Shown piece after piece: positions 8,287 to 52,890 of a stretch of DNA of 64,000 bases; the first letter of the stretch is position 1, and every line of letters begins with the position of its first letter. Below the pieces are notes generated by a model. The model did not search any database, had not been told where the DNA came from, and worked only from the letters and a program-made list of their open reading frames with translations. Source of the DNA: Octopus vulgaris (taxonomy: Eukaryota); contig OX597827.1 in assembly GCA_951406725.2 (NCBI GenBank), positions 80,166,001-80,230,000 of the forward strand, given 5' to 3'. The translations under genes were made by a program, and so were the position numbers.

Positions 8287-8408
8287 TTAACTGGCAACAA
8301 CATCTGGTGTTGAAGGTAACTGTCTCTCTGGAGGTTTCACATATCTGTCTTGGTAATGGTCTCTCTCACTGGTGCTTGATACATCGGGTGGGGCACCACC
8401 ATAGATTC
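8287..8408 (-). CDS. Pcdh: Protocadherin G2 terminal coding exon
   Basis: Acceptor tgtgtttcag; phase 1 reading (G)IYGGAPPDVSSTSERDHYQDRYVKPPERQLPSTPDVVAS*. Conserved in six copies. Confidence 0.88.
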
Positions 8409-9633
8409 CTGAAACACACACATATATCAAATAAATGTATTGCATAAGTCATGTAGTCAGTAGGTATTTTATGTCAGGGAAAAAAAACTATTTAGATGTG
8501 TTTTAATTGTACAATATATTATGTTGTTTACTGATTATAATTAAACAGTTCTGCTCCATTAGTTTCAAAAAGTATTAGAAATAACACCACAATTACCTGT
8601 ATATTGTGATGAACAACTAATTGTACATAATGAAAAACAAGGGACTAATGGTGAAAATACTGGACCAGGTTAAAATATATGAAATTAAGAACTTGACAAG
8701 GTGAGTAGATATGTATCTGACACTGAAGGAGACACATCACAAGGGATAAGTTACAAAACTTAGTGTAAATAATAAATAAATACATAAATAATAAATATAT
8801 AAATATAGTGTAAATATGTAAATGTAGTATAAATAATATACAAAGAAATGTCACTCACAACAAAACCCATATCCAAAATATTTTTGTATTCATATAGACT
8901 GATTTTATAAAAGTCATTTTATCAATTTGTATTTCCACAACAGTTTAATAATTTATGTCCCTAACACTTAGCTGAATGGAACAAACACCATATTTTGTAG
9001 AAAAAAGTGCAATACCTTTTTAGATTCCTGTAAACTGTGTACTTATAACTACCAGAATATGAATAAGAATTGAATACTCTTGTAAACGTTCCTAATGTTA
9101 GGTTCTTGAAGATATTTTGCGAAATACAAACATAGATCAGATCATGTAAATGTTTTCTGTTTTTTTCAGTGTTTAGAGTTAATTCTGGACAATACTGTGA
9201 TAACCACCTAATGACATTTTATATTATGCAAATTGTATTCACAATAACTTTTGAATAGATTACAGCCAAGTTGAGCAACAGGATATATGTTTAAGTCAAT
9301 GACAAAATGTAATATAGGAGAGGTCCTCTATACATCTTTGCTTTGTACAGGGAGATTTGGTGTGTATGTATAAAGTATTATATTGTCACTTTAAGTATAT
9401 ATTGGTATTTCTAAAAGTTTCCTTACAGCTTTCTATGTCGTGATTAGTTGATATATTTTTAGGAGAATACATTACATAATGTCATAAAAGCTGTTTCTAA
9501 AACATCATGATTATCATTCAGGATACGAATTTTATATTAATTAACAAATTAAAGAGTTTCAAGAAAGTGACGTCAGAATGAGAGACATGATAATGAAATT
9601 AGTAACAAATGCAAATGGCTGAGAGTGTTGTAC

Positions 9634-9787
9634 CTGACATTGCTGGTATTTCTTCATACTGTCTACTTGACCGCTCACTCCAGCACTGTCCACTACTCTT
9701 ACGACTGGTCAATGTGTCAGTGGGATAGTGAGAAGATGGTCTGTTGTCTCCATAAGATGTCACCTCAATGGGTTGACTGTATTTCTG
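9634..9787 (-). CDS. Pcdh: Protocadherin G2 cytoplasmic exon (154 nt)
   Basis: ttttccag|CAG...TCAG|gtacaa; phase 0 to 1, QKYSQPIEVTSYGDNRPSSHYPTDTLTSRKSSGQCWSERSSRQYEEIPAMS(G). Joins in frame to both flanking exons. Confidence 0.9.
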
Positions 9788-10417
9788 CTGGAAAATACAA
9801 TAGCAACAAAATATATTGTAATGGTATCATTTATAAATGTGAACCTGTTACATAGCTAATTCTTAAATATTGATGGGTACATGTATGTAATAATATACTA
9901 TCAACAAGCTATTCTTCCTAACTGCCCATATGAGCACCTAACTAGAACAAGTTAACTAAAATTAGACACATCTCAAATCATTATTTTATAGCTCCCTCTG
10001 AAAAAGCAAATAGTGTCCATGGAATTTTTAGATCTTCCTTTATTAGTTATACTACAAAAATTCATATTGTGCATGTGTCTGTATAATTGCCATACAAGCC
10101 TGGAGGCATCTGAACTGCTATATCAAGAGTTTTCATAAAATTAGCAAAGATTCTATTGACAAATGGTAAGAAAGCACAGTGGTTAATTAGGTCCCTGATG
10201 CTCTACAAGGTATGAATGAACTCTTCATACTCCTAATAGGGATTCTCTTGGATTTGAACAAGAAACAGAAGGCATTTGTCATCTCTGCACCATATTAGTA
10301 AATTCTTCATAGATAAAAAGCATTTGGACAGTAAACGGTATTCTTAAATTTCCAAAGAGAAAAGTAACTTTCATATAAGCATGGTGCCATCTAATAGTCA
10401 ATCAAAGCAAGGCTTAC

Positions 10418-12775
10418 CTTTGTAGACTTCTGAAGTGATCTGCTCATTGTCGATGTCTTCCAGTCTTCAGGATAGTAATGGCTCCTCGAATGACCATATC
10501 TGTCTGACATCTCTCCTCGATTACCTGACATCACAGGTACACTGTTGTTACCTTGATAGATCAACTGTCTCATCTCATTGCGACATTGGTATGCCTGTTT
10601 CTCTTCTGCTGTTCTTTCAGATGAGCTATTTCTCACATTGTTACATCTCACAATACACAGGGTTATAGAAACCACAATAGCTATAGATACTATCACAGCT
10701 GCTACTACAATGATAATCAACAATGTCGCATCTATTGTGTTATCACTTGGTAGGTGCACAGCTGTGAACATTGGTGACGTCTTGTTACTAACAGTCAGTG
10801 TCAAAGACACACTAGTTGTTGCTGACAGAACTGGAGTACCACTGTCTTTCACAACAAACTCAAGCTCATATGATCCGGCATCATTTTGGTAAACTGTGCG
10901 AGAGTAAGATAACACACCAGTGAACGAATCCAGTTTAAATAACTGTCTCTCGTTACCTGAAACGATTTCGTACCTGAGAAAAGCATTCATGTGACTGTCT
11001 ATATCAGATGCTTTCAGAACTGTGATGTCGTTCTTACTTTGCGGATGATAGTGGACATTAAGAGTGAAAGGGTCAACACTAGGAAATGTAAAATATGGAG
11101 CATTATCATTTCTATCCAATACTTCCACTTCAACATTCACTGTGTTATTCAGAGATGGGCTTCCATTGTCTTTCACAAAAACCTCAAACTCATAGAAATC
11201 TCTGTGTTCTCTGTCTAAAGACTGGTTTGTTGAAATAAAGCCAGAGTTGATAATCTGGAATGGCAGACGATATTGCTGTTTATTTCTCAGAGAATAAGAC
11301 AATTCACCTCCCTTACCAATATCTGGGTCTGTAGCATTGATAAAGCCAATAGGGAAATTAGCTTTGTCATTCTCATAGGTAAGGAACTTGAATGTGTCTT
11401 TCGTAAAGTGTGGTTCTACATCATTCACATCCAACACTTGGATTGACAGATCTTTATCAGTTTTCAGAGCAGGTAATCCTTTATCTTCACACGACACAGT
11501 AAAGTGATAATGTTCCTGTGTCTCTCTGTCTACTGCTTTCTTTAGAACTATTTTATATTCCTTCGATCCCATTGACTGTAGTTTGAATGTGTCATCTTTG
11601 ATATGACAGTTCACCTGTCCATTGTGTCCAACATCGTTGTCAGTGACCATCACATAAGCAATGAAACTACCAACTTTGATGTCTTCCAGAATGGTAGCTG
11701 TGTTGTGATTCTGTGTAGAAATAAAGTTCACATCAATATTTGGGGGATTGTTCTGCTGGTTGATGACATTTACCATAACAGTTGCTATGGAACTAAGCGG
11801 AGGACTGCCATCATCTCTGGCTTCGATGTATAATTTAAAAGACTCATCCTTATCCATTTTTGAAGATGTAGCTAAATATAATTTCCCAGTCCTTTCATGT
11901 AAATTAAAGTTTCTCTTCATTTTCTCAGCAGTTTTCCTAGCAAAATAATATGATATTTTACCATTCCTGCCAATATCTAAATCAGTGGCAGATATTGTGA
12001 CTACTGGAATATTCTTTTTATGTTTATGTTCGATAGAAACATTGTAGATACTTTGGGAAAATTGTGGTGGATTATCATTTTCATCTTCCACAGATATTTT
12101 AACATTTAAAACAGACTGCTTTGGTGGAGTTCCTCCATCTTTAGCAATGACTTCAATATCATAATCGTCCTTCTTTTCTCTGTCTAATTTCTCTTCTAAA
12201 ATAATTCCTAATGTTGATATTTCATCAGTCTGTTTTGCAACTGATAATGAAAAGTGTCCATTATCTTTTTTCAATTCATAAGTAATTAAGCTGTTTTCTG
12301 GACTCATATCTTTGTCAATAGCATTAGGTATGGGTTTCTTCATACCTTTACCATCACCTTCCCCAAAAATTAGTGTGATTTCTTTCTGAGGAAACTCAGG
12401 TTGGTGGTCATTGATGTCTTCTATTATGACTTTAATCTTTAAGATCTTCATAAATGTCTTGGATTTGTGAACAGCAACTTTAACGATTTCAAAACATTCT
12501 TTCTCATAACTACACACAGACTCAGCATCCAATGTCTCAACAGTGTACAGTTTACCTGTTCTCGTCACATTGAACAATTGTTCTCCCTTTTGTTGCAGTT
12601 GACTAAATGTAATTAAATCCTTATTCTTTAAGAAGGAGCTGTCTGATTTCTGTAAGTCAGTAGCAATGTCCCCTACATAGGTATGAGGAATATTCTCTTC
12701 TTTAACATGGTATGTGATATCTTCACTTAAATAACAGTGGAAGAAAGTCAGTAAAACACAGAGAAACAGCAACAT
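10418..12775 (-). CDS. Pcdh: Protocadherin G2 large exon (SP, EC1-EC6, TM, juxtamembrane)
   Basis: 794-aa ORF with cadherin motifs (DINDHQP, LDRE, DENDNPP, DVNDVEP, DRNDNAP), EC1 C-X5-C and TM LLIIIVVAAVIVSIAIVVSITLCIV. Donor AAG|gtaagc at 10418; acceptor before 12817. Confidence 0.97.
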
Positions 12776-13424
12776 TTCTGATCTTGTCCAGGAAAACGGT
12801 GGTTTGTAAAATTAAACCTGAAACAAAAAATATGTATCTCATATCAATAAGAAATGTATGGATTTGCAAACCAAGTTTCTTTTCTTTATTTCATTCATAA
12901 AAATATTTTCAATGAAGAACAGCAATGCTACTCTTCTTAATATCATGTACAAGTGGACAAGAATTATATGACCAATTCTTAGCAAACTTAATTATGTATA
13001 TTAAGATTCAATGATTCATAGAATTTCTGAAGACTTAAAGAGTAAAAGTGGCACTTATATCCAGATAAGTACTCTCAAACAAATATTAATCTGCCTAATT
13101 TTGAAGTAAATTAACTAAAGATGAGAAACGTGAATTGTGGGCAAGATCATAATTAATATTTTGACTCTCATTTTACGATGGAATCTAACTTCGCATCAAT
13201 ATTTTTACAGGTCAAAATACAAATATTTTATGGAACTTTGAGTTATTTCCCTTAAATATGACAAACAATTTTAAGTCGAGCAATTATCAATGAAAATATG
13301 CTTAGTTATGTACTTCACGTACGCACAGGTGTGTGTGTGTGTGTGTTTATGTGTGTGTGTGTGTGCTTGTGTGGGTGCTTGTGTATATATACATTTGTGA
13401 TAATGCTATATATATATATATATA

Positions 13425-15545: not shown

Positions 15546-15590
<45 letters not shown>

Positions 15591-15828: not shown

Positions 15829-16450
15829 GATCTAATATGGCCACCATTAGAACGTTACATTTTGATAATGTATTATGGTTATATATGAAATCATTATTAC
15901 ACACAAGTGGATAAATAATATGGAATAACAAACTTACCTTCATTGTGTGTAAAATCCTTTGTTGTATAAAGTGTGACTTGGTCCCAATGTTCTGTTGTTA
16001 ATGGTTGTCTGTGTCACTGCTGCTATGGTGTGACAATGGCTTCATGTTGATGGAATAGTGTTGGTGGTGAGTCAGTGGGAACCAGCAGTTCCCTCTCAAG
16101 TCTTCCTTTGTGGATGTGTGGTGTTTAGTGAGTGTGTGCATGGGTGTGAGTGAGAGACAGAGAGAGGAGGAGAGATGGGTGATGCTCACTCCAGCCTCAC
16201 TCAGACTTGATGTGTTTTCCCTCACAATGAAAAGAGAGGGACAACAAACTATCAGCTCCACTAACAGTCAGCCATGATAAGTCTATATAACACCAACATG
16301 TCTGATGTAGAGAGAGACTGACATAGAAATCCTTAGAACAGAGAGGTTATATTAACTAAATATGGCTGATGTTGTTAATGTGTGTGTAATTTAAAATGTA
16401 AATATAACATTGATAATAACAGTTAGTGTCTGTCTGACCTAGTTCTAAAT
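15829..16450 (-). promoter_or_regulatory. Conserved promoter/first-exon block of G2 (exon ends 15938)
   Basis: Near-identical to the other five blocks; ATG-AAG|gtaagt donor. Confidence 0.75.
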
Positions 16451-16840: not shown

Positions 16841-16962
16841 TTAACTGACAACAACATCTGGTGTTGAAGGTAACTGTCTCTCTGGAGGTTTCACATATCT
16901 GTCTTGGTAATGGTCTCTCTCACTGGTGCTTGATACATCGGGTGGGGCACCACCATAGATTC
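16841..16962 (-). CDS. Pcdh: Protocadherin G3 terminal coding exon
   Basis: tgtttcag acceptor; (G)IYGGAPP...RQLPSTPDVVVS*. Confidence 0.88.
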
Positions 16963-17301: not shown

Positions 17302-17455
17302 CTGCCATTGCTGGTATTTCTTCATACTGTCTGCTTGACCGCTCACTCCAGCACTGTCCACTGCTCTTACGACTGGCCAGTGTGTCAGTGGGATAGTGAG
17401 AAGATGGTCTGTTGTCTCCATAAGATGTCACCTCAATCGGTTGACTGTATTTCTG
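17302..17455 (-). CDS. Pcdh: Protocadherin G3 cytoplasmic exon (154 nt)
   Basis: aacag|CAG...GCAG|gtaaaa; matches ORF-track peptide TSYGDNRPSS...YEEIPAMAG. Confidence 0.9.
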
Positions 17456-19054: not shown

Positions 19055-21415
19055 CTTTGTAGACTTCTGAAGTGTCCGACTCATTGTTGACGTCTTCCAA
19101 TCTTCAGGATAGTAATGGCTTCTCGAATGACCATATCTGTCTGACATCTCTCCTCGATTACCTGACATCACAGGTACACTGTTGTTACCTTGATAGATCA
19201 ACTGTCTCATCTCATTGCGACATTGGTATGCCTGTTTCTCTTCTGCTGTTCTTTCAGATGAGCTATTTCTCACATTATTACATCTCACAATACACAGGGT
19301 TATAGAAACCACAATAGCTATAGATACTATCACAGCTGCTACTACAATGATAATCAACAATGTTGCATCTATTGTGTTATCACTTGGTAGGTGCACAGCT
19401 GTGAACATTGGTGACGTCTTGTTACTAACAGTCAGTGTCAAAGACACACTAGTTGTTGCTGACAGAACTGGAGTACCACTGTCTTTCACAACAAACTCAA
19501 GCTCATATGATCCGGCATCATTTTGGTAAACTGTGCGAGAGTAAGATAACACACCAGTGAACGAGTCCAGTTTAAATAACTGTCTCTCGTTACCTGAAAC
19601 GATTTCATACCTGAGAAAAGCATTCATGTGACTGTCTATATCAGATGCTTTCAGAACTGTGATGTCGTTCTTACTTTGCGGATGATAGTGGACATTAAGA
19701 GTGAAAGGGTCAACACTAGGAAATGTAAAATATGGAGCATTATCATTTCTATCCAATACTTCCACTTCAACATTCACTGTGTTATTCAGAGATGGGCTTC
19801 CATTGTCTTTCACAAAAACCTCAAACTCATAGAAATCTCTGTGTTCTCTGTCTAAAGACTGGTTTGTTGAAATAAAGCCAGAGTTGATAATCTGGAATGG
19901 CAGACGATATTGCTGTTTATTTCTCAGAGAATAAGACAATTCACCTCCCTTACCAATATCTGGGTCTGTAGCATTGATAAAGCCAATAGGGAAATTAGCT
20001 TTGTCATTCTCATAGGTAAGGAACTTGAATGTGTCTTTCGTAAAGTGTGGTTCTACATCATTCACATCCAACACTTGGATTGACAGATCTTTATCAGTTT
20101 TCAGAGCAGGTAATCCTTTATCTTCACACGACACAGTAAAGTGATAATGTTCCTGTGTCTCTCTGTCTACTGCTTTCTTTAGAACTATTTTATATTCCTT
20201 CGATCCCATTGATTGTAGTTTGAATGTGTCATCTTTGATATGACAGTTCACCTGTCCATTGTGTCCAACATCATTGTCAGTGACCATCACATAAGCAATG
20301 AAACTACCAACTTTGATGTCTTCCAGAATGGTGGCTGTGTTGTGATTCTGTGTAGAAATAAAGTTCACATCAATATTTGGGGGATTGTTGTGTTGGTTGA
20401 TGACATTTACCATAACGGTTGCTATGGAACTCAGAGGAGGAATTCCATTATCTTTAGCTTCAATATATAATTTTAAAGAATTTTTGGTGTCAACCTCTAA
20501 AGATTTTATTAAGAATATTTTCCCAGAGTTTTCATCAATATTAAAATACTGTTTCATTTGCATATCAGTCTTCGGACTGAAATAGAAAGATATTTTACCA
20601 TTCCTGCCAATATCTAAATCACTGGCAGATAATGTGACTACTGGAATATTCTTTTTATGTTTATGTTCTATAGAGACATTGTAGATACTTTGAGAAAACT
20701 GTGGTCTGTTGTCATTTTCGTCTTTTACAGATATTTTAACATTTAACACAGATTGTTTTGGTGGAGTTCCCCCATCTTTAGCAATGACTTCAACATTGTA
20801 ACTGTCTTTCGTTTCTCTGTCTAATTTCTTTTCTAAAATAATTTCTATTGATGATATTCCATCTGCACGTTTGACAACATGTAAAGAAAAGTGGCTTCTA
20901 TCATCTTTTCTCAGTTCATATGTAATTAAACTATTTTTATTACCCATATCTTTATCAACAGCATTGGGTATTGATAGTTTTGATCCTTTACTATCTCTCT
21001 CTGAAAACTGAATGTTGACTTCTTCAGTTGGAAACTCAGGTTGGTGGTCATTGATGTCTTCTATTATGACTTTAATCTTTAAGATCTTCATAAATGTCTT
21101 CGATTTGTGAACAGCAACTTTAACGATTTCAAAACATTCTTTCTCATAACTACACACAGACTCAGCATCCAATGTCTCAACAGTGTACAGTTTACCTGTT
21201 CTCGTCACATTGAACAATTGTTCTCCCTTTTGTTGGAGTTGACTAAATGTAATCAAATCCTTATTCTTTAAGAAGGAGCTGTCTGATTTCTGTAAGTCAG
21301 TAGCAATGTCCCCTACATAGGTATGAGGAATATTCTCTTCTTTAACATGGTATGTGATATCTTCACTTAAATAACAGTGGAAGAAAGTCAGTAAAACACA
21401 GAGAAACAGCAACAT
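19055..21415 (-). CDS. Pcdh: Protocadherin G3 large exon
   Basis: 801-aa ORF with six cadherin repeats and TM. Donor AAG|gtaagc at 19055; acceptor before 21471. Confidence 0.97.
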
Positions 21416-21997
21416 TCCTGATCTTGATATTAACGCAGTATCCAGAAGAAAGATGGTTTATAACATTAAACCTGAAACAAAAAATATGTATCTCATATCA
21501 ATAAGAAATGTATGGATTTGCAAACCAAGTTTGTTTTCTATATTTTATTCATAAAAATATTTTCAATGAAGAACAGCAATGCTACTCTTCTTAATATCAT
21601 GTACAAGTGGACAAGAATTATATGACCAATTCTTAGCAAACTTAATTATGTATATTAAGATTCAATGATTCATAGAATTTCTGAAGACTTAAAGAGTAAA
21701 AGTGGCACTTATATCCAGATAAGTACTCTCAAACAAATATTAATCTGCCTAATTTTGAAGTAAATTAATTAAAGATGAGAAACGTGAATTGTGGGCAAGA
21801 TCATAATTGATATTTTGACTCTCATTTTACGATGGAATCTAACTTCGCATCAATATTTTTACAGGTCAAAATACAAATATTTTATGGAACTTTGAGTTAT
21901 TTCCCTTAAATATGACAAACAATTTTAAGTCGAGCAATTATCAATGAAAATATGCTTAGTTATGTACTTTACGTACGCACAGGTGTGTGTGTGCTTG

Positions 21998-22043
<46 letters not shown>

Positions 22044-22046
<3 letters not shown>

Positions 22047-24057: not shown

Positions 24058-24685
24058 CAGATCTAATATGGCCACCATTAGAACGTTACATTTTGATAAT
24101 ATAATATGGTTATATATGAAATCATTATTTCACATAATTTGAATAAATAATATGGAATAACAAACTTACCTTCATTGTGTGTAAAATCCTTTGTTGTATA
24201 AACTGTGACTTGGTCCCAATGTTCTGTTGTTAATGGTTGTCTGTGTCACTGCTGCTATGGTGTGACAATGGCTTCATGTTGATGGAATAGTGTTGGTGGT
24301 GAGTCAGTGGGAACCAGCAGTTCCCTCTCAGTCTTCCTTTGTGGATGTGTAGTGTTTAGTGAGTGTGTGCATGGGTGTGAGTGAGAGACAGAGAGAGGAG
24401 AGATGGGTGATGCTTACTCCAGCCTCACTCAGACTTGATGTGTTTTCCCTCACAATGAAAAGTGAGGGACAACAAACTATCAGCTCCACTAACAGTCAGC
24501 CATGATAAGTCTATATAACACCAACATGTCTGATGTGGAGAGAGACTGACATAGAAATACTTAGAACAGAGAGGTTATATTAACTAAATATGGCTGATGT
24601 TGTTAATGTGTGTGTAATTTAAAATGTAAATACAATATTGACAATAAGAGTTAGTGTGTGTGTGTGTGTCTGACCTAATTCTAAA
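24058..24685 (-). promoter_or_regulatory. Conserved promoter/first-exon block of G3 (exon ends 24170)
   Basis: Near-identical block; ATG-AAG|gtaagt. Confidence 0.75.
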
Positions 24686-25080: not shown

Positions 25081-25202
25081 TTAACTGACAACAACATCTG
25101 GTGTTGAAGGTAACTGTCTCTCTGGAGGTTTCACATATCTGTCTTGGTAATGGTCTCTCTCACTGGTGCTTGATACATCGGGTGGGGCACCACCATAGAT
25201 TC
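25081..25202 (-). CDS. Pcdh: Protocadherin G4 terminal coding exon
   Basis: Intact copy, ends DVVVS*. Confidence 0.82.
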
Positions 25203-25541: not shown

Positions 25542-25695
25542 CTGACATTGCTGGTATTTCTTCATACTGTCTGCTTGACCGCTCACTCCAGCACTGTCCA
25601 CTGCTCTTACGACTGGTCAATGTGTCAGTGGGATAGTTAGAAGATGGTCTGTTGTCTCCATAAGATGTTACTTCAATGGGTTGACTGTATTTCTG
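25542..25695 (-). CDS. Pcdh: Protocadherin G4 cytoplasmic exon (154 nt)
   Basis: Intact splice sites and open frame. Confidence 0.82.
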
Positions 25696-32334: not shown

Positions 32335-32960
32335 ACAGATCTAATATGGCCACCATCAGAATATTACATTTTCATATTACAGGAAGGCTACATATGAAAT
32401 CATTATTTCACGTAATTTGAATAAATAATATTGAACAATAGACTTACCTTCATTGTGTGTAAAATCCTTTGTTGTATAAACTGTGACTTGGTCCCAATGT
32501 TCTGTTGTTAATGGTTGTCTGTGTCACTGCTGCTATGGTGTGACAATGGCTTCATGTTGATGGAATAGTGTTGGTGGTGAGTCAGTGGGAACCAGCAGTT
32601 CCCTCTCAGTCTTCCTCTGTGGATGGGTGGTGTTTAGTGAGTGTGTGCATGGGTGTGAGTGAGAGACAGAGAGAGGAAGAGATGGGTGATGCTCACTCCA
32701 GCCTCACTCAGACTTGATGTGTTTTCCCTCACAATGAAAAGAGAGGGACAACAAACTATCAGCTCCACTAACAGTCAGCCATGATAAGTCTATATAACAC
32801 CAACATATCTGATGTGGAGAGAGACTGACATAGAAATCCTTAGAACAGAGAGGTTATATTAACAAAATATGGCTGATGTTGTTAATGTGTGTGTAATTTA
32901 AAATGTAAATACAATATTGACAATAACAGTTAGTGTGTGTGTGTCTGACCTAATTCTAAA
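32335..32960 (-). promoter_or_regulatory. Conserved promoter/first-exon block of G4 (exon ends 32448)
   Basis: Near-identical block; ATG-AAG|gtaagt. Confidence 0.75.
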
Positions 32961-33390: not shown

Positions 33391-33512
33391 TTAACTGACA
33401 ACAACATCTGGTGTTGAAGGTAACTGTCTCTCTGGAGGTTTCACATATCTGTCTTGGTAATGGTCTCTCTCACTGGTGCTTGATACATCGGGTGGGGCAC
33501 CACCATAGATTC
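33391..33512 (-). CDS. Pcdh: Protocadherin G5 terminal coding exon
   Basis: Intact copy, ends DVVVS*. Confidence 0.88.
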
Positions 33513-33851: not shown

Positions 33852-34005
33852 CTGACATTGCTGGTATTTCTTCATACTGTCTGCTTGACCGCTCACTCCA
33901 GCACTGTCCACTACTCTTATGACTGGTCAGTGTGTCAGTGGGATAGTGAGAAGATGGTCTGTTGTCTCCATAAGATGTCACCTCAATCGGTTGACTGTAT
34001 TTCTG
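33852..34005 (-). CDS. Pcdh: Protocadherin G5 cytoplasmic exon (154 nt)
   Basis: Matches ORF-track peptide ...YEEIPAMSG; canonical splice sites. Confidence 0.9.
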
Positions 34006-35664: not shown

Positions 35665-38067
35665 CTTTGTAGACTTTTGAAGACTTCTGCTCATTGTCGA
35701 TGTCTTCCAGTCTTCAGGATAGTAATGGCTTCTCGAATGACCATATCTGTCTGACATCTCTCCTCGATTACCTGACATCACAGGTACACTGTTGTTACCT
35801 TGATAGATCAACTGTCTCATCTCATTGCGACATTGGTATGCCTGTTTCTCTTCTGCTGTTCTTTCAGATGAGCTATTTCTCACATTGTTACATCTCACAA
35901 TACACAGGGTTATAGAAACCACAATAGCTATAGATACTATCACAGCTGCTACTACAATGATAATCAACAATGTCGCATCTATTGTGTTATCACTTGGTAG
36001 GTGCACAGCTGTGAACATTGGTGACGTCTTGTTACTAACAGTCAGTGTCAAAGACACACTAGTTGTTGCCGACAGAACTGGAGTACCACTGTCTTTCACA
36101 ACAAACTCAAGCTCATATGATCCGGCATCATTTTGGTAAACTGTGCGAGAGTAAGATAACACACCAGTGAACGAATCCAGTTTAAATAACTGTCTCTCGT
36201 TACCTGAAACGATTTCATACCTGAGAAAAGCATTCATGTGACTGTCTATATCAGATGCTTTCAGAACTGTGATGTCGTTCTTACTTTGCGGATGATAGTG
36301 GACATTAAGAGTGAAAGGGTCAACACTAGGAAATGTAAAATATGGAGCATTATCATTTCTATCCAATACTTCCACTTCAACATTCACTGTGTTATTCAGA
36401 GATGGGCTTCCATTGTCTTTCACAAAAACCTCAAACTCATAGAAATCTCTGTGTTCTCTGTCTAAAGACTGGTTTGTTGAAATAAAGCCAGAGTTGATAA
36501 TCTGGAATGGCAGACGATATTGCTGTTTATTTCTCAGAGAATAAGACAATTCACCTCCCTTACCAATATCTGGGTCTGTAGCATTGATAAAGCCAATAGG
36601 GAAATTAGCTTTGTCATTCTCATAGGTAAGGAACTTGAATGTGTCTTTCGTAAAGTGTGGTTCTACATCATTCACATCCAACACTTGGATTGACAGATCT
36701 TTATCAGTTTTCAGAGCAGGTAATCCTTTATCTTCACACGACACAGTAAAGTGATAATGTTCCTGTGTCTCTCTGTCTACTGCTTTCTTTAGAACTATTT
36801 TATATTCCTTCGATCCCATTGACTGTAGTTTGAATGTGTCGTCTTTGATATGACAGTTCACCTGTCCATTGTGTCCAACATCATTGTCAGTGACCATCAC
36901 ATAAGCAATGAAACTACCAACTTTGATGTCTTCCAGAATGGTAGCTGTGTTGTGATTCTGTGTAGAAATAAAGTTCACATCAATATTTGGAGGATTGTTG
37001 TGTTCATTGATAACATTTATCTGAATTATTGCTACGGAGCTCAGTGGAGGACTGCCATCATCTCTGGCTTCAATGTATAATTTTAAAGACTCTTCTTTAT
37101 CAATTTCTGAAGATGTAGCTAAATATAATTTCCCAGTATTTTCATCTAAATTAAAATGTCTCTTCATTTTCTCAGCAGTTTTCCTGGCAAAGTAATATGA
37201 TATTTTACCATTCCTGCCAATATCTAAATCACTGGCAGATAATGTGACTACTGGAATATTCTTTTTATGTTTATGTTCAATGGAGACATTGTAAATACTT
37301 TGAGAAAACAGAGGTGTATTATCATTTTGATCTTGTACAGATATTTTAACATTTAAAACAGATTGTTTTGGTGGAGATCCTCCATCTTTGGCAATGACCT
37401 GAATACTATAACTATCTTTCTTTTCTCTATCTAATTTCTCTTCTAAAATAATTCCCAATGTTAATATTCCATTAGTATGTTTGGCAACTACTAAAGAGAA
37501 ATACTGATTATCCTTTTTTAATTCATATGTAATTAAACTGTTCTCATATCCCACATCTTTATCAATAGCATTTTCTATTGATCTCTTCGTGCCTTTGCCA
37601 TCTGTTTCAGAAAATTGAATATTGACTTCTTCAGTTGGAAACTCAGGTTGGTGGTCATTGATGTCTTCTATTATGACTTTAATCTTTAAGATCTTCATAA
37701 ATGTCTTGGATTTGTGAACAGCAACTTTAACGATTTCAAAACATTCTTTCTCATAACTACACACAGACTCAGCATCCAATGTCTCAACAGTGTACAGTTT
37801 ACCTGTTCTCGTCACATTGAACAATTGTTCCCCTTTTTGTTGTAGTTGACTAAATGTAATTAAATCCTTATTCTTTAGGAAGGAACTGTCTGATTTCTGT
37901 AGGTCAGTAGCAATGTCCCCTACATAGGTATAGGGACTATTCTCTTCTTCAACATGGTATGTGATATCTTCACTTAGGGAAAAGTGAAAGAAAGTCAGTA
38001 ATACATACAGACATAACATTTCTGTTCTTGACAGTATCCAGGGATAAGGAGAACACAATTTGTTCAT
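35665..38067 (-). CDS. Pcdh: Protocadherin G5 large exon
   Basis: 818-aa ORF. Acceptor ttttgtttcag before 38067 (exon begins ATG AAC AAA), signal-peptide Met at 38019, donor at 35665. Confidence 0.97.
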
Positions 38068-39914: not shown

Positions 39915-40540
39915 CAGATCTAATATGGCCACCATCAGAATATTACTTTTGGCTTTACAATATAGCTGTATATGACATGATTCATTTCACATCATTGGAC
40001 AAATAATAGGGAATAATAGACTTACCCTCATTGTGTGTAAAATCCTTTGTTGTATAAACTGTGACTTGGTCCCAATGTTCTGTTGTTAATGGTTGTCTGT
40101 GTCACTGCTGCTATGGTGTGACAATGGCTTCATGTTGATGGAATAGTGTTGGTGGTGAGTCAGTGGGAACCAGCAGTTCCCTCTCAAGTCTTCCTCTGTG
40201 GATGGGTGGTGTTTAGTGAGTGTGTGCATGGGTGTGAGTGAGAGACAGAGAGAGGAAGAGAGATGGGTGATGCTCACTCCAGCCTCACTCAGACTTGATG
40301 TGTTTTCCCTCACAATGAAAAGAGAGGGACAACAAACTATCAGCTCCACTAACAGTCAGCCATGATAAGTCTATATAACACCAACATGTCTGATGTGGAG
40401 AGAGACTGACATAGAAATCCTTAGAACAGAGAGGTTATATTAACAAAATATGGCTGATGTTGTTAATGTGTGTGTAATTTAAAATGTAAATACAATATTG
40501 ACAATAACAGTTAGTGTGTGTGTGTCTGACCTAATTCTAA
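39915..40540 (-). promoter_or_regulatory. Conserved promoter/first-exon block of G5 (exon ends 40026, ATG-AGG|gtaagt)
   Basis: Near-identical block; second codon is AGG rather than AAG. Confidence 0.75.
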
Positions 40541-40978: not shown

Positions 40979-41100
40979 TTAACTGACAACAACATCTGGT
41001 GTTGAAGGTAACTGTCTCTCTGGAGGTTTCACATATCTGTCTTGGTAATGGTCTCTCTCACTGGTGCTTGATACATCGGGTGGGGCACCACCATAGATTC
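40979..41100 (-). CDS. Pcdh: Protocadherin G6 terminal coding exon
   Basis: Intact copy, ends DVVVS*. Confidence 0.88.
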
Positions 41101-42147: not shown

Positions 42148-42301
42148 CTGACATTGCTGGTATTTCTTCATACTGTCTACTTGACCGCTCACTCCAGCAC
42201 TGTCCACTACTCTTACGACTGGTCAATGTGTCAGTGGGATAGTTAGAAGATGGTCTGCTGTCTCCATAAGATGTCACCTCAATGGGTTGACTGTATTTCT
42301 G
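42148..42301 (-). CDS. Pcdh: Protocadherin G6 cytoplasmic exon (154 nt)
   Basis: ctaacag|CAG...TCAG|gtagga; open frame with YEEI. Confidence 0.9.
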
Positions 42302-42534: not shown

Positions 42535-44889
42535 CTTCATACTTTTTGGTAAACTTCTGCTCATTGTTGATGTCTTCCAGTCTTCAGGATAGTAATGGCT
42601 CCTCGAATGACCATATCTGTCTGACATCTCTCCTCGATTACCTGACATCACAGGTACACTGTTGTTACCTTGATAGATCAACTGTCTCATCTCATTGCGA
42701 CATTGGTATGCCTGTTTCTCTTCTGCTGTTCTTTCAGATGAGCTATTTCTCACATTGTTACATCTCACAATACACAGGGTTATAGAAACCACAATAGCTA
42801 TAGATACTATCACAGCTGCTACTACAATGATAATCAACAATGTCGCATCTATTGTGTTATCACTTGGTAGGTGCACAGCTGTGAACATTGGTGACGTCTT
42901 GTTACTAACAGTCAGTGTCAAAGACACACTAGTTGTTGCTGACAGAACTGGAGTACCACTGTCTTTCACAACAAACTCAAGCTCATATGATCCGGCATCA
43001 TTTTGGTAAACTGTGCGAGAGTAAGATAACACACCAGTGAACGAGTCCAGTTTAAATAACTGTCTCTCGTTACCTGAAACGATTTCATACCTGAGAAAAG
43101 CATTCATGTGACTGTCTATATCAGATGCTTTCAGAACTGTGATGTCGTTCTTACTTTGCGGATGATAGTGGACATTAAGAGTGAAAGGGTCAACACTAGG
43201 AAATGTAAAATATGGAGCATTATCATTTCTATCCAATACTTCCACTTCAACATTCACTGTGTTATTCAGAGATGGGCTTCCATTGTCTTTCACAAAAACC
43301 TCAAACTCATAGAAATCTCTGTGTTCTCTGTCTAAAGACTGGTTTGTTGAAATAAAGCCAGAGTTGATAATCTGGAATGGCAGACGATATTGCTGTTTAT
43401 TTCTCAGAGAATAAGACAATTCACCTCCCTTACCAATATCTGGGTCTGTAGCATTGATAAAGCCAATAGGGAAATTAGCTTTGTCATTCTCATAGGTAAG
43501 GAACTTGAATGTGTCTTTCGTAAAGTGTGGTTCTACATCATTCACATCCAACACTTGGATTGACAGATCTTTATCAGTTTTCAGAGCAGGTAATCCTTTA
43601 TCTTCACACGACACAGTAAAGTGATAATGTTCCTGTGTCTCTCTGTCTACTGCTTTCTTTAGAACTATTTTATATTCCTTCGATCCCATTGACTGTAGTT
43701 TGAATGTGTCGTCTTTGATATGACAGTTCACCTGTCCATTGTGTCCAACATCATTGTCAGTGACCATCACATAAGCAATGAAACTACCAACTTTGATGTC
43801 TTCCAGAATGGTAGCTGTGTTGTGATTCTGTGTAGAAATAAAGTTCACATCAATATTTGGAGGATTGTTGTGTTGGTTGATAACATTTATCTGAATTATT
43901 GCAATGGAACTGAGAGGAGGAATTCCATTATCTTTGGCTTTCACATATAATTTTAAAATATCTTCCTTACCACTTCCTAAAGATTTTGATAAAAATAACT
44001 TTCCAGTATCTTCTTCCAACATGAAATTTTTCCTCGTTTGTTCAGCTGTTTTTCTACTAAAATAGAAAGATATTTTACCATTCCTGCCAATGTCTAAATC
44101 ACTGGCAGATAATGTGACTACTGGAATATTCTTTTTATGTTTATGTTCAATAGAGACATTGTAGATACTTTGAGAAAATTGTGGTTTATTATCATTTTCA
44201 TCTTTTACAGATATTTTCACATTTAAAACAGATTGTTTTGGTGGAGTTCCTCCATCTTTAGCAATGACTTCAATATTGTAGTTGTCTTTTTTTTCTCTAT
44301 CTAATTTCTCTTCTAAAATAATTGTTAAGGTTGATAATCCATCAGCTTGTTTAGAGACAAATAATGAAAAAAGATTTGTATGACCATGTAACTCATATCT
44401 AATTAAACTATTTTGATAACCTATATCTTTGTCAATAGCATTAGGTACAGGATTTTTTTTTCCTTTCCCATATTCTTCTTCAAATTGTATATTAATTTCT
44501 TTCTGAGGAAACTCAGGTTGGTGGTCATTGATGTCTTCTATTATGACTTTAATCTTTAAGATCTTCATAAATGTCTTGGATTTGTGAACAGCAACTTTAA
44601 CGATTTCAAAACATTCTTTCTCATAACTACACACAGACTCAGCATCCAATGTCTCAACAGTGTACAGTTTACCTGTTCTCGTCACATTGAACAACTGTTC
44701 TCCCTTTTGTTGCAGTTGACTAAATGTAATTAAATCCTTATTCTTTAAGAAGGAGCTGTCTGATTTCTGTAAGTCAGTAGCAATGTCCCCTACATAGGTA
44801 TAGGGACTATTCTCTTCTTCAACATGGTATGTGATATCTTCACTTGCATAACAGTCAAAGAGAGTCAGTAAAACATATAGCAATAACAT
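42535..44889 (-). CDS. Pcdh: Protocadherin G6 large exon
   Basis: 792-aa ORF. Donor AAG|gtatgt at 42535; acceptor ttttctgtttcag before 44937. Confidence 0.97.
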
Positions 44890-47379
44890 TTCTGTCCTTG
44901 GCAGTATGCAGGGATAATGGGAAATATATCTTTTTATCTGAAACAGAAAATTATTTAGATTAAGAAATAATGAATATAGTGCAGTAAACTCAGTAATTGC
45001 TTTCCTTTCATGAAAACAAAATACTACAATATCAAATTGTTCATATTGTAAGAGTCACTTAAAAAGAACATAGGTATAACACAATTTTTTAATATGAGGT
45101 ATGGACTTGATCTTTGTGACCAATTAACAGTATCATGCAATATTATTATAAGTCTGTTTTTCGTTTTGTTTCACATTCATTTTAGCTTAGATATTCATAT
45201 TATGGCCAACTGATTCAAAACTGCACTATTTATATATTATGATGCTTAAGATTGCAGTGGCAATACATTCTGTGAAGTGAACACATTAATATCTAGTACT
45301 AAGATAGATCACTTAAATTGTAACTACATACAAGATAGTAGTTACTAAATTTTGATGCATTTCTACAAGTAATTTTAACCAAACCACATGTAAGTTTTGT
45401 ATTTTATGTAGGAACAAATGATTGTAACTATCCAATTTCTATAAGATTTTAATGGAAAATACTAAAGTAGGTAATTATTGGAACAGAAATGATTCAATTG
45501 AAATAGTATGGCTTTGTAAAATTATTTTTCAAACTTTTAAATAATGTGCTTATTGCATCAGAATAGAGTAAAAGAGGGGACAGAAAGCAGTAAAAAGTCA
45601 AGTAAAGAAAGATAGTAATAAGAGCTTAGTACACAGGATGAAACATAAGGTGTAGCATGAGCAAATTTATGAATTTTCCTAAGTTGCAGTGTCCTGACAG
45701 CTAACAACTGATGTCATTAGTTTAACCCAAGCAACGTACTTTGCAGCTATGATGCTCAGTCTCGCATCCGTATCCTTAGTTCATTAGACATAGGATACAA
45801 CTTTAGTAATTTCTGAAAGAAAAAAGCCACTTCTTACACACCAGTAAATACACTACATAATATTTAACAAATCCTAAGTTATACTGTCATCATCATTTTG
45901 CATTCATCTTTCCCGGGTTTGTGTGGTTAGAAGAACCTTCACCAGCACAGTGTCTCACCATCTCTTTCATTCCATTCTTACTCTGGCTTACCATACTTTC
46001 AGAACACGATCCTCCACAGCTTGTTAAGTCATCTAGGTACAAAAAGCTATGAGCAACTTCTAAAATCTCCAACCATCTGAAAGAGTATATTTTATGGTTG
46101 CTCTTAACGCTAACTACTCCCATACATCTGCTGTATACTGAGTCCTACTCTATAACTCTGATGCTGTCTCAATACATCGTTTGTGCACCCATAAATAACA
46201 CCATTCCTGCATCCTCCTTTTCTGTATATGGAGAATATGACCAATTCCAAGATGGTTCTGTTTCCTGTTAATAAAATTTTAGTCTTTTCTAGATTTACTT
46301 TAAAACTTCATAATTCTAGGCTTTGCATCTGCATTATGAACATTTTATGTAATTCTTTGGCAGATTCAACTAAAACAACTATGCCATTGTCTTGCAACAA
46401 TTCCTACAGACAACTCATGTTGAACACTTCTGTTATGATTAAGGGAACCAAAGGACACTAAACTTTCCTCATTGAACTTACAGCAAAAAACTCACCTGCT
46501 GGTATTTTAGCTGTTTTGGTGTCTATTTTCTGCATGTTCCTATGTGGCCACCCTATTACCATACACAGCATAAACATATTAAGTCTCAGCCCTATGTATA
46601 TGAATTTAGGTTGATGGTCATGTTTTTACAGATGGCTATCCTTCCTATCACAAACAACTAGAGTGTGGACCAAATGAAATATATTGTGCCAGCCACACTA
46701 ATGAGGTTCTCTGACAGGACTGAAGTGTCTCCATCATATCAGTTTTTATACAGAGTTGCCTTTCTCTGAGACAAGTCATTTTAGCTGCAGATATGGAGTT
46801 TACATTTCCTCTCTTCAGATTATTATTCTAACTTATCTCCATCCTAGAGGGTTACCTTCTGTGCAGCTTGTGAAACCCATGTCACCCCTACAGAATTTTT
46901 AATTTAGAGTTTAAATGGGTTACCTAGTTTGCAGCTTAGTTAAATCCACATCTTAGTTTCTTGGTGTAAAGTATTTAACAACCAACTAGTAGGAAAATAT
47001 TGAAGTTTGCCCCAGTCTGGTGCAGATGATTGGAACGAGTCCATCTTCATAGTACTAATGGAGCAGGGAGTCTCCATGGCAGTGGTATGAGTGGTTAGCT
47101 AACAAAGTGAGTGAATGGGTTTCATTGTTTCTAAGATACTTGGAGTAATGGCTAATTTTAACATGTCCCGAGAAGGAGCAGAGCAGAAAGATAAGAACAT
47201 CAATTCCTGTGATGAGAACTGCAACTTCTTGAAAAGATGAAGTGGAAAATAGCATAATAACCAAGATGGTGACTAAGAAGAGAATTAAACAGTTCACAAG
47301 CATTCATATTAAACACTAATGACATTTCGTTTGCTGACTTATTATAGTTCCTTAGGGTTCTTCACGTCATAATAAAAAG

Positions 47380-49252: not shown

Positions 49253-49866
49253 ACAGATCTAATATGGCTACCATCAGAATATTACATTTTTGATGTTACA
49301 ATAGAGCTATATATGAAATCATTATTTCACAGAATAGCACAAATAATATTGAACAATAAACTTACCTTCATTGTGTGTAAAATCCTTTGTTGTATAAACT
49401 GTGACTTGGTCCCAATGTTCTGTTGTTAATGGTTGTCTGTGTCACTGCTGCTATGGTGTGACAATGGCTTCATGTTGATGGAATAGTGTTGGTGGTGAGT
49501 CAGTGGGAACCAGCAGTTCCCTCTCAGTCTTCCTCTGTGGATGTATGGTATTTAGTGAGTGTGTGTGCGTGAGAGTGAGAGATGGGTGATGCTCACTCCA
49601 GCCTCACTCAGATTAGATGTTATGTTTCCCCTCACACACAAAGACAGAGTAGTGAGAGAACACACACAATCAGCTCCACTAACAGTCAGCCATGATAAGT
49701 CTATATAACACCAACATGTCTGATGTGGAGAGAGACTGACATAGAAATCCTTAGAACAGAGAGGTTATATTAACAAAATATGGCTGATGTTGTTAATGTG
49801 TGTGTAATTTAAAATGTAAATATATTATTGACAATAACTGTTAGTGTGTGTCTGACCTAATTCTAA
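49253..49866 (-). promoter_or_regulatory. Conserved promoter/first-exon block of G6 (exon ends 49366)
   Basis: Near-identical block with a locally divergent middle (49560-49670); ATG-AAG|gtaagt. Confidence 0.75.
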
Positions 49867-50307
49867 ACTAAATCTCTTATATCAGGATATATAAATGGGA
49901 AATTTAAAGATGATATTCAAACTCTGTGAAATAAATTTTCTCAAATCTTAACAATTTATTTATTTATTTTCTAATTATGTATGTAAAGTAAAATTCAATT
50001 TACATTTTCAGTTTTAAATTGTATTGCACCAAGAAAAATCTCTGACTATAATTTCTTATCATTCCTTAACTTTGCCTTATCTAACTGCAAGATTTTATAA
50101 TTCATCTCTAAAGCTCCTCTTTTGTTTTACATTTGTGCAAACTTTTCCAAAGCATTTATAAAATGAATATTCTCTCAGACACATAGAAAGATATACAGTC
50201 ACATGTGGGGAAATATTGTTAACTAACTAATATATTTCTGCTGTTTTAAATGTTGTGTGAATGTTGAAGGTGATATTATTTCTGTTGTGTTCCTTTCTCA
50301 GTCTCAC

Positions 50308-50429
50308 TTAACTGACAACAACATCTGATGTTGAAGGTAACTGTCTCTCTGGAGGTTTCACATATCTGTCTTGGTAATGGTCTCTCTCACTGGTGCTTGA
50401 TACATCGGGTGGGGCACCACCATAGATTC
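50308..50429 (-). CDS. Pcdh: Protocadherin G7 terminal coding exon
   Basis: Intact; ends RQLPSTSDVVVS* (P>S relative to paralogs). Confidence 0.88.
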
Positions 50430-51599
50430 CTGAAACACACACATATATCAACTACATTTATCACACAGTTTATATAATAAATAGGTATTTACTGATGTTA
50501 GTAATCAATTCCTAGTCTGCTACAATGACTGGGCTATAATATAAAATAAAGATCAAGTTTTAAGTGTCCTTATCTAAGAAGCTTATTTCAATTAAATGCA
50601 CACCATATCGTTTCCTAATACAGTTCTGCTCTATTTGTTCCAAACACACTAGAAACCACACTACAATTACATATTTATTCAGATGAACAACTAATTGTGT
50701 ATGTTTTCCCAAAGGAAATGGAACCTGTGGAAAAGAGAGAGAGAAAGATACAAGAAAGGTGAAATGGTGAAGACAGATCAGAAACTATAACACACCACAG
50801 AGACGATGACAAAGGCCTGCAGTGACCAGTTACACAGTGTGAGAGAAGATCTGCTTTCTCATCTAGGCGTGGCAAAACGCACTAAAACAATGTTAGCTAT
50901 ATTTGTATACATACACACATGTATCATTAAACATATGTATATGTATGTGTACACATCTGCTTACTGATAAGTCTCTTTGATAGTCTCTCACCCAATATTA
51001 CTCACTTTCTTTGTCACTCACACCTCTGTCTCTCATCCCTTGCATTACACTTCTCTATAACTCATCAGTCTACTGTCACCCATATCTCTTTCACCCTAGC
51101 TTCCTGCATCATGCCCCTAATGTTCATCTCTTAATCACTTCCTCTTCTTCTTCTCAATCTCCCAATCTCACTATACTATGCACTCAGTGTGACTGACGAT
51201 AGCAGCACACCTCTTCTGTTCATCACATATTGCACTCTCCCCTCTATGCTTTTATTTTTCATCTTCTTTTCACCATACATTGCACTCTTTCACCCATGCC
51301 TATTGCTATCTTTCAACCATTCACTCCTCTTCCCAATGTGAGTGAGGATAGCAGTATATTCCTTCACTTTGCTGTACATGGCTTCCATTGTAACTACAGA
51401 CATCACTGCACCTATTCTGACTCTGCCCCAAACATTCCTTTGTGCCATTCACAGAACCCACCTGTTTTCCATTTCCTCTGACACCATTCTGATCATTTGA
51501 CACTTTTGGTTGGTCTTTTAGCCAATGTATACGAAGACTAATTGAACCATTCATACCCAGTTCACTCTACCTTCACCTTCACCTCTTTTACTTCCTGCT

Positions 51600-52235
51600 A
51601 TCACCCCCATCACTCCTGCCAGTATCCTCTTGTTCCTTATCTTCCACACATCCTAAGCTGCAATGGAGACTACGTAGCTGTGGTTAGCAGGAAGGGACAC
51701 AGCAGGTGTTCTCCCAACAACTGATGAACAGGGCCTTAGGTTTAATTCAGATGGTTATGTGAAGCTGCTCAAGACTGTGGTCAAACCCTGGTTGGAGAGG
51801 GTTGCTGCTGGAAAGCCTGTGTGTGTTGCCAGGATTGGGCTCTTTTCCATACCTCCAGAAAGAATCAGAGATGGTTGTCTGAGAATTTCTTTGACTTCAC
51901 CAGCCCCAATTTTTGGTCTTCTAATTCCTTTGGATTACTGTGTACAGGGCACAATTGAGGAAAGCACCAACCACTCTGCTTGCAACACCAAGGCCGAGCT
52001 GGTAGCCATAGTAAAGGAAGCATTTGAAGATCTTACCAGGACACAGTGAGGGACACATACACCAAGTTCCAGAGCCAAGGTGGAAGCTGAGGGCAGCTAC
52101 TTTGAGCAAACTGATATTTTCCAGCCATAATCTACTTGATATTTTTTGATTTTTTTGAAAGAAAATACTTTATTTTTAATGTGGTTTCTTTTCCTTTTAT
52201 GCAACCTGTCAAATTCAGCCCAGACACTTTGTATA
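51600..52235 (+). mobile_element. Degenerate Tc1/mariner (maT-like) remnant, second copy
   Basis: KLLKTVVKPWLERVAAGKP..., WLSENFFDFTSPNFW; 3' end matches 5580-5765. Confidence 0.7.
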
Positions 52236-52736
52236 CCTATCTCAGAATACAAAGCACTGCTACCACATCACCTGTTATCAGACATCCTTCATATCACTAT
52301 CATTTAAGCCTCTGACTCATGCTTCTCGTTCTGTGAAGTGGCTGGTGAGGTTGAAGAAATAGCTACTTCTTTAGGGATGGTATCATAAAAAGTATACCCC
52401 GTACACTTTGTGAAGGGCATAACACCTCTCTAGTGCTGGTGGCACAAAAAAGGCACCCAGTACATTCTGTAAAGTGGTTAGTGTTATGAAGGGCATCCAG
52501 CCAAGAATGAAATGCAAGTGTGATAAAGTAACCCTACCCATCTAGGTTGGCAGCATATCTATATTTGTGCTGACTTCCATCATGATAACATAGCAAAAGC
52601 AACTTTTAACATCTCCTAAAGATGATTCATGTTGCTTAAAGCATTAGTAAATTAGAGATTTAGAGCTGATTAATCTCTCAAGTAAAAACTATGAACAGAA
52701 TTAATGACAAAACATGAATAAATGAAATTGTTTTAC

Positions 52737-52890
52737 CTGACATTGCTGGTATTTCTTCATACTGTCTACTTGACCGCTCACTCCAGCACTGTCCACTGCT
52801 CTTACGACTGGTCAGTGTGTCAGTAGGATAGTTGGAAGATGGTCTGTTGTCTCCATAAGATGTCACCTCTATTGGTTGGCTGTATTTCTG
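52737..52890 (-). CDS. Pcdh: Protocadherin G7 cytoplasmic exon (154 nt)
   Basis: ttttaaag|CAG...TCAG|gtaaaa; matches ORF-track peptide. Confidence 0.88.

What the first reader, a model, noticed from the sequence alone, without database searches (positions are those of the whole stretch)
8287..52890. Every gene carries its own private, homogenised copy of two 'constant' cytoplasmic exons
Seen: six copies each of a 154-nt exon and a terminal exon with 122 coding nt plus ~90 nt of conserved 3' UTR. They are near-identical even where the flanking introns (G2, G6, G7) look unrelated within a few bases of the splice sites. Established: vertebrate Pcdh-alpha/gamma obtain a common tail by splicing variable exons to one shared set of constant exons. 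Inference: the same variable-ectodomain/constant-tail output is achieved here by exon-limited concerted evolution. Identical phases would also permit splicing of any large exon to a downstream gene's tail.
Basis: partly seen in the sequence, partly recalled or inferred. Interest (0 to 1): 0.7.

Follow-up and report, generated by a model that had tools for sequence, protein, structure and literature searches.

The report
Octopus protocadherins: private, homogenised tails
Each of 24 side-by-side octopus nerve-cell adhesion genes has its own copy of the two tail exons and a near-identical inner half, most likely kept alike by DNA copying between neighbouring genes, a pattern already described for fish genes of this family.

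Summary
Observation confirmed. The window is the 5' end of a minus-strand array of 24 octopus protocadherin genes; each has its own exon 2 and terminal exon 3, and RNA-type contigs join them. Exon 2 is 93-99% identical in 23 of 24 genes while intron flanks are near shuffled level. Concerted evolution is supported: EC1-EC3 group across Octopus and Argonauta, but EC4-to-tail groups by genus. The most uniform part lies inside exon 1 (synonymous difference EC5 0.001, exon 2 0.125, EC2 0.55; 330 nt identical in all 24) and starts mid-exon, as in fugu protocadherins. Exon 3 falls into classes (14, 7, three singletons). Nothing supports mRNA-templated conversion; swapped intron flanks and kept introns favour DNA-level exchange. 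Cross-gene splicing is untested, and DVVAS is not private to G2. Full-gene duplication plus gene conversion is already in print for cephalopods (PMC9068888); I found no domain-level description for them, but could not read two key papers. The scan noted homogenised EC5-tail before in another genome (e1-9545755). Side findings: a near-invariant probable leader exon, and probable A-to-I editing in EC5.

The parts
52737..52890 (-). G7 exon 2 (154 nt)
   Evidence: joints
50308..50429 (-). G7 exon 3 coding part, class A (PSTSD variant)
42148..42301 (-). G6 exon 2
40979..41100 (-). G6 exon 3 coding part
33852..34005 (-). G5 exon 2
33391..33512 (-). G5 exon 3 coding part
25542..25695 (-). G4 exon 2; 7 of 154 nt differ from G5 although intron 1 differs at 22 of 1658
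25081..25202 (-). G4 exon 3 coding part
17302..17455 (-). G3 exon 2 (PAMAG variant)
16841..16962 (-). G3 exon 3 coding part
9634..9787 (-). G2 exon 2
8287..8408 (-). G2 exon 3 coding part (DVVAS, shared with U10)
55037..57438 (-). G7 large exon (signal peptide, EC1-EC6, TM, start of tail); acceptor position is a motif-based candidate
55147..56365 (-). G7 homogenised block EC4 to proximal tail (codons 345-750); 55703-56032 is identical in all 24 genes
42535..44937 (-). G6 large exon; homogenised block 42645-43863
35665..38067 (-). G5 large exon; homogenised block 35775-36993
27355..29750 (-). G4 large exon, 1-nt frameshift near 28665; homogenised block 27465-28682
19055..21471 (-). G3 large exon; homogenised block 19165-20383
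10418..12817 (-). G2 large exon; homogenised block 10528-11746
1..2033 (-). G1 large exon, cut by the window edge; its tail exons lie in L019
49366..49533 (-). near-invariant non-coding block ending at a GTAAG donor; likely 5' leader exon of G6
40026..40193 (-). same block, likely leader of G5
32448..32615 (-). same block, likely leader of G4
24170..24337 (-). same block, likely leader of G3
15938..16105 (-). same block, likely leader of G2
6975..7142 (-). same block, likely leader of G1

Best explanation
This is a tandem array of complete octopus protocadherin genes, each with its own tail exons, whose EC4-to-tail half is most likely kept alike by repeated DNA-level gene conversion between neighbours while EC1-EC3 stay distinct. 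Shown: private exons in 24 of 24 genes, their splicing, very low synonymous divergence in EC4-TM and exon 2, genus-wise grouping of those parts against cross-genus grouping of EC1-EC3, and patchwork alleles. Inferred: purifying selection keeps these stretches similar enough to go on pairing, so conversion continues there and stops where introns have drifted, which gives the sharp steps at splice sites without any RNA template. Inferred from vertebrate structure work: EC2-EC3 would carry cell-to-cell specificity, identical EC5-EC6 would let any two isoforms pair on the same cell, and the common tail would give one shared signal; its kept YEEIP and RxLPxxP motifs resemble SH2 and SH3 docking sites (resemblance recalled from memory, binding untested).
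For: (23 genes, U09 left out because its exon 2 is diverged): uncorrected pS EC1 0.46, EC2 0.55, EC3 0.54, EC4 0.035, EC5 0.001, EC6 0.030, TM 0.011, proximal tail 0.017, exon 2 0.125; codons 456-565 identical in 24 of 24, and 99-100% in two further flanking genes. (24 own + 24 Argonauta proteins): the genus label changes 8 times on the EC1-3 tree with cross-genus pairs (U09-P0031, U11-P0025, G7-P0028, G1-P0017, G4-P0019; support 97-100), once on the EC4-proximal-tail tree (support 98); on the exon 2 tree 21 of 24 Argonauta rows group (93); 20 near-fixed genus-specific residues from EC4 to exon 2, two of them in exon 2; 18 of 45 informative site pairs in exon 2 show four gametes (at least 5 exchanges); 19 gene pairs share one intron flank of exon 2 but not the other. 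G4/G5 differ at 7 of 154 nt in exon 2 but 22 of 1658 in intron 1 (Fisher p 0.009), and 6 of the 7 allele pairs occur in other paralogs; exon 2, EC4 and EC6 distances are unrelated to gene order (r -0.08 to 0.10), EC2-3 is related (0.51). YE[ET][IL]P in 48 of 48 and [RK]xLPxxP in 46 of 48 tails; none and under 0.1 expected in shuffles.
Against: Exon 2 is also under strong protein constraint (pN 0.009; two near-fixed residues against Argonauta), so selection explains much of its identity and its pS of 0.125 is not near zero. The cross-genus test is on proteins only; no synonymous comparison between species was obtained. Zero near-fixed differences in EC1-3 is partly by construction, as those columns vary within each genus. 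The EC1-3 tree is the quick search, not the careful one. The excess in exon over intron was not significant for U05/U03 (6 of 154 against 15 of 768, p 0.14) and absent for U14/U12. GC3 is only mildly higher in the uniform parts (0.34-0.43 against 0.25-0.37), and minor-allele direction shows no GC bias. U09 escaped in exon 2 (78%). Function of the domains and motifs is carried over from vertebrates and untested.
Confidence: 0.82

Rival explanations
1. Purifying selection plus recent whole-gene duplication, with no exchange between copies.
For: pN is very low in exon 2 and exon 3; G3/G4/G5 and U05/U03 are recent duplicates; tail proteins are nearly the same in O. bimaculoides (P0128).
Against: The same gene pairs have pS about 0.55 in EC2-3 and shuffled-level introns but 0.001 in EC5; EC1-3 lineages predate the Octopus-Argonauta split while EC4-tail groups by genus; G4/G5 exon 2 is more different than their intron.
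Confidence: 0.04
2. Homogenisation is templated by reverse-transcribed mRNA, which is why tracts stop at splice sites.
For: Identity steps down within a few bases of the exon 2 and exon 3 splice sites; a non-coding probable leader exon is also homogenised (0.006 mean difference over 148 nt); exchange in exon 2 does not fall with distance along the array.
Against: Both coding-region introns are kept in 24 of 24 genes; intron flanks are swapped around exon 2 in 19 pairs, which a cDNA cannot do; the main tract starts mid-exon and fades 37 codons before the donor; no co-variation across the exon 1-2 or exon 2-3 junction (Mantel r about 0; a weak test, since the two halves of exon 2 are also uncorrelated); the off-cluster copy on C10 is unspliced.
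Confidence: 0.06
3. Nucleotide-level selection for RNA structure (A-to-I editing) freezes the synonymous sites.
For: A-to-G differences on the mRNA strand at 55960, 55933, 55932 and 55333 in runs X12/X14 that are absent from all 24 genomic copies; editing is reported as enriched in octopus protocadherins (10.1101/714394, passages).
Against: The local fold of 55800-56050 is not unusual (z -1.18); EC5 carries five near-fixed amino-acid differences from Argonauta, so the sequence changes but in all paralogs together.
Confidence: 0.04
4. The identity is an assembly or polishing artefact.
For: Near-identical tandem copies are prone to such errors; three large exons carry frameshifts.
Against: Independent run contigs cross EC4-TM unbranched at high depth (X1: 339 and 424 nt with no difference; X12: 556 and 571 nt); Argonauta and O. 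sinensis proteins show the same pattern; copies keep distinct patchwork alleles.
Confidence: 0.02
5. Add-on, not exclusive: large exons are regularly spliced to a downstream gene's tail.
For: Phases match in all genes; public gene models P0008 and P0150 combine one gene's large exon with another's tail exons; read-through fusions of octopus PCDH annotations are mentioned in PMC9712504 (passage).
Against: Those models can arise from short reads that cannot be placed uniquely; every gene has its own tail and AATAAA/ATTAAA candidates follow the stop in 7 of 8 genes examined; the tail swapped in would be almost the same protein; PMC9068888 states that cephalopods do not use shared final exons.
Confidence: 0.1

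Closest known systems
Coleoid cephalopod clustered protocadherin sub-arrays (Albertin et al. 2022, PMC9068888; Styfhals et al. 2019, PMC6339937; passages read)
   Same: Head-to-tail multi-exon full genes on one chromosome; diversity by full-gene duplication and not by shared final exons; homogenisation by gene conversion suggested.
   Different: The passages read give no domain-level or exon-level map. Here the converted part is mapped to EC4-TM, exon 2, exon 3 classes and a probable leader exon, and tested across two genera.
Fugu Pcdh2 alpha/gamma subclusters, regional gene conversion (Yu et al. 2007, PMC1852091; passages read); also zebrafish and mouse (PMC4978886, PMC2764143; passages read)
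   Same: 3' half of the large exon over 99% identical among neighbours, discrete boundary at EC4/EC5, EC2-EC3 left diverse.
   Different: Vertebrate alpha/gamma tails come from one shared set of constant exons; the octopus expansion is independent and each gene keeps private tail exons. Fugu converted parts have GC3 above 50%; here 0.34-0.43.
Vertebrate Pcdh-beta subcluster
   Same: No shared constant exons; each gene is a complete unit (PMC2764143, passage).
   Different: Beta genes lack the tail exons altogether; these genes each have two, with a conserved tyrosine and proline motif pair.

Membership tests
Cephalopod clustered protocadherins | Six cadherin repeats, TM and start of tail in one large exon | tested here: met
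   Pfam Cadherin_2 plus Cadherin repeats in single ORFs of about 790 aa
Cephalopod clustered protocadherins | Tandem head-to-tail array of complete multi-exon genes | tested here: met
   24 of 24 genes with own exons 1-3 on one strand
Cephalopod clustered protocadherins | Closest relatives are octopod protocadherins | tested here: met
   All named proteins among the best 120 hits are Octopus or Argonauta proteins
Cephalopod clustered protocadherins | Neural-enriched expression | not testable with these tools
   Runs carry no tissue record; only spliced contigs seen
Vertebrate Pcdh alpha/gamma (variable plus constant exons) | One shared set of constant exons at the cluster end | tested here: not met
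   24 copies of exon 2 and exon 3, one per gene
Vertebrate Pcdh alpha/gamma (variable plus constant exons) | Large exons spliced over neighbours to a distant tail | tested here: inconclusive
   Contigs cannot phase across the 1.2-kb uniform block; cross-gene models exist only in automated annotation
Regional gene conversion of clustered protocadherins (fugu type) | Near-zero synonymous divergence in EC4/5-onward against high divergence in EC2-3 | tested here: met
   pS 0.001-0.035 against 0.54-0.55
Regional gene conversion of clustered protocadherins (fugu type) | Paralogs closer than orthologs in the converted part only | tested here: met
   Protein trees, 1 against 8 genus changes; DNA level not obtained
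Regional gene conversion of clustered protocadherins (fugu type) | Raised GC3 in the converted part | tested here: inconclusive
   0.34-0.43 against 0.25-0.37; no GC bias among segregating sites
mRNA-templated gene conversion | Intron loss, or co-conversion across splice junctions | tested here: not met
   No intron lost in 24 genes; no linkage across junctions, low power

The most novel reading that the evidence does not exclude
Octopods rebuilt the vertebrate variable/constant protocadherin design without shared exons: array-wide conversion makes leader, EC4-TM and exon 2 one virtual constant region for about 25 genes, large exons are also spliced to neighbours' tails, and A-to-I editing of the identical EC5 recodes the pairing surface of all isoforms at once.
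Probability: 0.1. Interest if true: 0.7.

Novelty: new member of a known kind. Interest (0 to 1): 0.36.

Why it matters
It gives a second, independent origin of the vertebrate pattern in which EC2-EC3 vary and the membrane-near half is uniform, which suggests that octopus protocadherins use the same logic of specific pairing between cells and promiscuous pairing on one cell, and says which domains to test. It also warns that whole-gene distances used to date the octopus expansion (8-14 Ma burst, PMC9795677) and short-read expression or editing calls for these genes are distorted by the uniform half. The core idea (full-gene copies plus conversion) is already in print.

Tried and rejected
No RNA holder on record was listed for the stretch; the four runs laid are guessed to be RNA. 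No DNA-level comparison with other species was obtained, so synonymous fixed differences between species stay open. The C10 copy of the leader block looked like a possible retrocopy but is an unspliced 2.3-kb genomic fragment 98% like U04's flank. Local RNA fold around the probable editing sites is ordinary. Junction-linkage tests were null and weak. GC bias not shown. The conserved block after each exon 3 was first read as 3' UTR and then as leader exon; no copy was found upstream of G7 within about 57 kb, so this is not settled. The careful EC1-3 tree did not finish; the quick tree was used. My exact-match test of EC2-3 in public models failed for most rows because insertions relative to G7 had been dropped; N-terminal sequence was used instead. 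Albertin 2015 (PMC4795812) and Noonan 2004 (PMC353213) are not held; Wang and Ragsdale 2017 was not looked up; only one short supplementary file of PMC9068888 is held and had no hit. These may already describe the domain pattern.
Full report
What the window is. Seven large minus-strand ORFs of about 800 aa carry six cadherin repeats and a TM segment; the best relatives are Octopus and Argonauta protocadherins. The window is G000:C14:80,166,001-80,230,000. With 190 kb to the left the array holds 24 genes (G7 to G1 in the window, U01 to U17 beyond), each with a large exon, an exon 2 and a terminal exon 3, one to one. Two more genes further out share EC5 at 99-100% but have other tails.

The observation. 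All twelve exons are at the stated places with the stated lengths and phases. Over 23 genes (U09 left out, its exon 2 is 136 nt and about 78% alike) exon 2 averages 0.97 identity; its 60-nt intron flanks average 0.56 and 0.60 against 0.53 and 0.55 for shuffles. Exon 3 has only four variable sites in 122 nt among 14 class A genes, but seven genes (U11-U17) have a second class and three have their own. The exon 2-3 joint appears in 4 of 4 runs laid; one 1474-nt contig in X2 covers exons 1, 2 and 3; X1 shows the exon 1-2 joint 3 nt further in, an alternative acceptor. The runs are guessed to be RNA.

Where the constant part really lies. Uncorrected synonymous difference over all pairs of 23 genes: EC1 0.46, EC2 0.55, EC3 0.54, EC4 0.035, EC5 0.001, EC6 0.030, linker and TM 0.011, proximal tail 0.017, last 37 codons of exon 1 0.24, exon 2 0.125; in the six window genes exon 2 is 0.145 and EC2 0.50. 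Codons 456-565 are identical in 24 of 24 genes, including U09 and the three frameshifted ones. So the main uniform tract is about 1.2 kb inside exon 1, beginning near the EC3/EC4 border. Unbranched high-depth contigs across it in X1 and X12 argue against an assembly artefact.

Conversion or selection. I took the 24 Argonauta hians proteins with 85% or more identity to G7's EC4-onward part among the 120 listed (cluster representatives; two may be orthologs of outer genes). EC1-3 tree: the genus label changes 8 times and five single cross-genus pairs have support 97-100 (quick tree), so these lineages are older than the two genera. EC4-to-proximal-tail tree: one change, support 98; exon 2 tree: 21 of 24 Argonauta rows group, 3 changes; exon 3 tree: 6 changes, few columns. 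Twenty residues from EC4 to exon 2 are near-fixed for different letters in the two genera, two in exon 2, none in exon 3 or EC1-3 (the EC1-3 zero is partly by construction). Inside G000, exon 2 alleles are patchworks (18 of 45 site pairs with four gametes). The recent duplicates G4 and G5 differ more in exon 2 (7 of 154) than in intron 1 (22 of 1658; p 0.009), with 6 of 7 allele pairs seen elsewhere; U05/U03 leans the same way (p 0.14) and U14/U12 does not. Selection also acts: pN in exon 2 is 0.009. The reading is that selection keeps the stretches alike enough for conversion to continue.

DNA or RNA template. Identity falls within a few bases of the splice sites, which both models predict once introns have drifted. 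For DNA exchange: 19 pairs share one flank of exon 2 but not the other, no coding-region intron is lost in 24 genes, and the main tract starts mid-exon. Variation in exon 2 is unlinked to the end of exon 1 or to exon 3 class (r about 0), but its own halves are unlinked too, so this test is weak. An RNA template is not excluded, only unsupported.

Cross-gene splicing. Phases allow it. Public models P0008 (G4 start, G3 exon 2, G2/U10 exon 3) and P0150 (G1 start, exon 3 of the U02/U04/U05 type) do it, and PMC9712504 mentions read-through fusions of PCDH annotations, but short reads cannot be placed across uniform blocks.

Likely function (inferred). In vertebrates EC2-EC3 set trans specificity and EC5-EC6 make promiscuous cis dimers (PMC7811963, passages). 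The same split of diversity here suggests the same logic. YE[ET][IL]P is in 48 of 48 and [RK]xLPxxP in 46 of 48 Octopus and Argonauta tails, and in 46 and 17 of 86 more distant hits; their likeness to Src-type SH2 and SH3 ligands is recalled from memory and untested.

What is known. PMC9068888 (passages) states that cephalopods do not splice first exons to shared final exons but duplicate whole genes, with homogenisation by gene conversion; PMC6339937 (passages) says much the same. PMC1852091 (passages) describes fugu paralogs over 99% identical from a discrete boundary at EC4 or EC5; PMC4978886 and PMC2764143 (passages) give the vertebrate dS pattern. PMC9795677, PMC13218726, PMC9712504 and 10.1101/714394 were read as passages and give no domain map. 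Eight searches found no domain- or exon-level account for cephalopods, but Albertin 2015 and Noonan 2004 were not held, Wang and Ragsdale 2017 was not looked up, and most supplements of PMC9068888 were not visible. Earlier scan notes report homogenised EC5-EC6, TM and tail in another genome (e1-9545755).

Verdict. Real, and concerted evolution is well supported, but it is a known mechanism in a known family; the new detail is the map of the uniform parts and the convergence with fish. New member of a known kind, interest 0.36.

Noticed in passing
window 49366-49533 and five more copies (40026, 32448, 24170, 15938, 6975); 24 copies in the array: Non-coding block 0.8-1.5 kb after each stop, mean difference 0.006 over 148 nt, followed by a GTAAG donor in 24 of 24 and mostly ending in ATGAAG; every large exon has an acceptor-like site upstream of its ATG and public model P0008 starts MK then G4's exon. 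Likely the leader exon of the next gene. No copy found upstream of G7; one contig (X14) runs from exon 3 to 49706, close to the block.
   Followed up: partly
window 55960, 55933, 55932, 55333 (G7 coordinates): A-to-G on the mRNA strand in runs X12 (whole depth of one contig) and X14 (9-31% at three of the sites), absent in all 24 genomic copies; would recode I480V, K489 and I689V. Probable A-to-I editing in the invariant EC5 and TM; needs matched DNA.
   Followed up: partly
window about 28665 (G4); U01 codon 61; U10 codon 105: Frameshifts in three of 24 large exons; U01 and U10 lie in A runs and may be sequencing errors, G4's does not. All three keep intact uniform blocks and tails.
   Followed up: partly
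window 52888-52893 and all exon 2 acceptors: Tandem acceptor (AG CAG) giving forms with and without one Gln; seen as a joint in X1 and in public proteins; U08 has only the inner acceptor.
   Followed up: partly
L021:7043-9301 (G000:C10 about 63.175-63.177 Mb): Unspliced 2.3-kb copy, 98% like the leader block and intron after U04, on another chromosome next to a repeat.
   Followed up: yes
G000:C14 about 79.94 Mb (P0030) and 80.26 Mb (P0034): Outer genes share EC5 at 99-100% but have diverged or different tails; P0030's tail exons lie about 26 kb from its large exon.
   Followed up: partly
L001, about 176-186 kb left of the window: Orphan fragments of a large-exon end and an exon 3, probably remains of a lost gene.
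   Followed up: no
window 5276-5742 and 51712-52214; 62481-62814: A 72%-alike interspersed repeat pair and a long AT-rich microsatellite.
   Followed up: no
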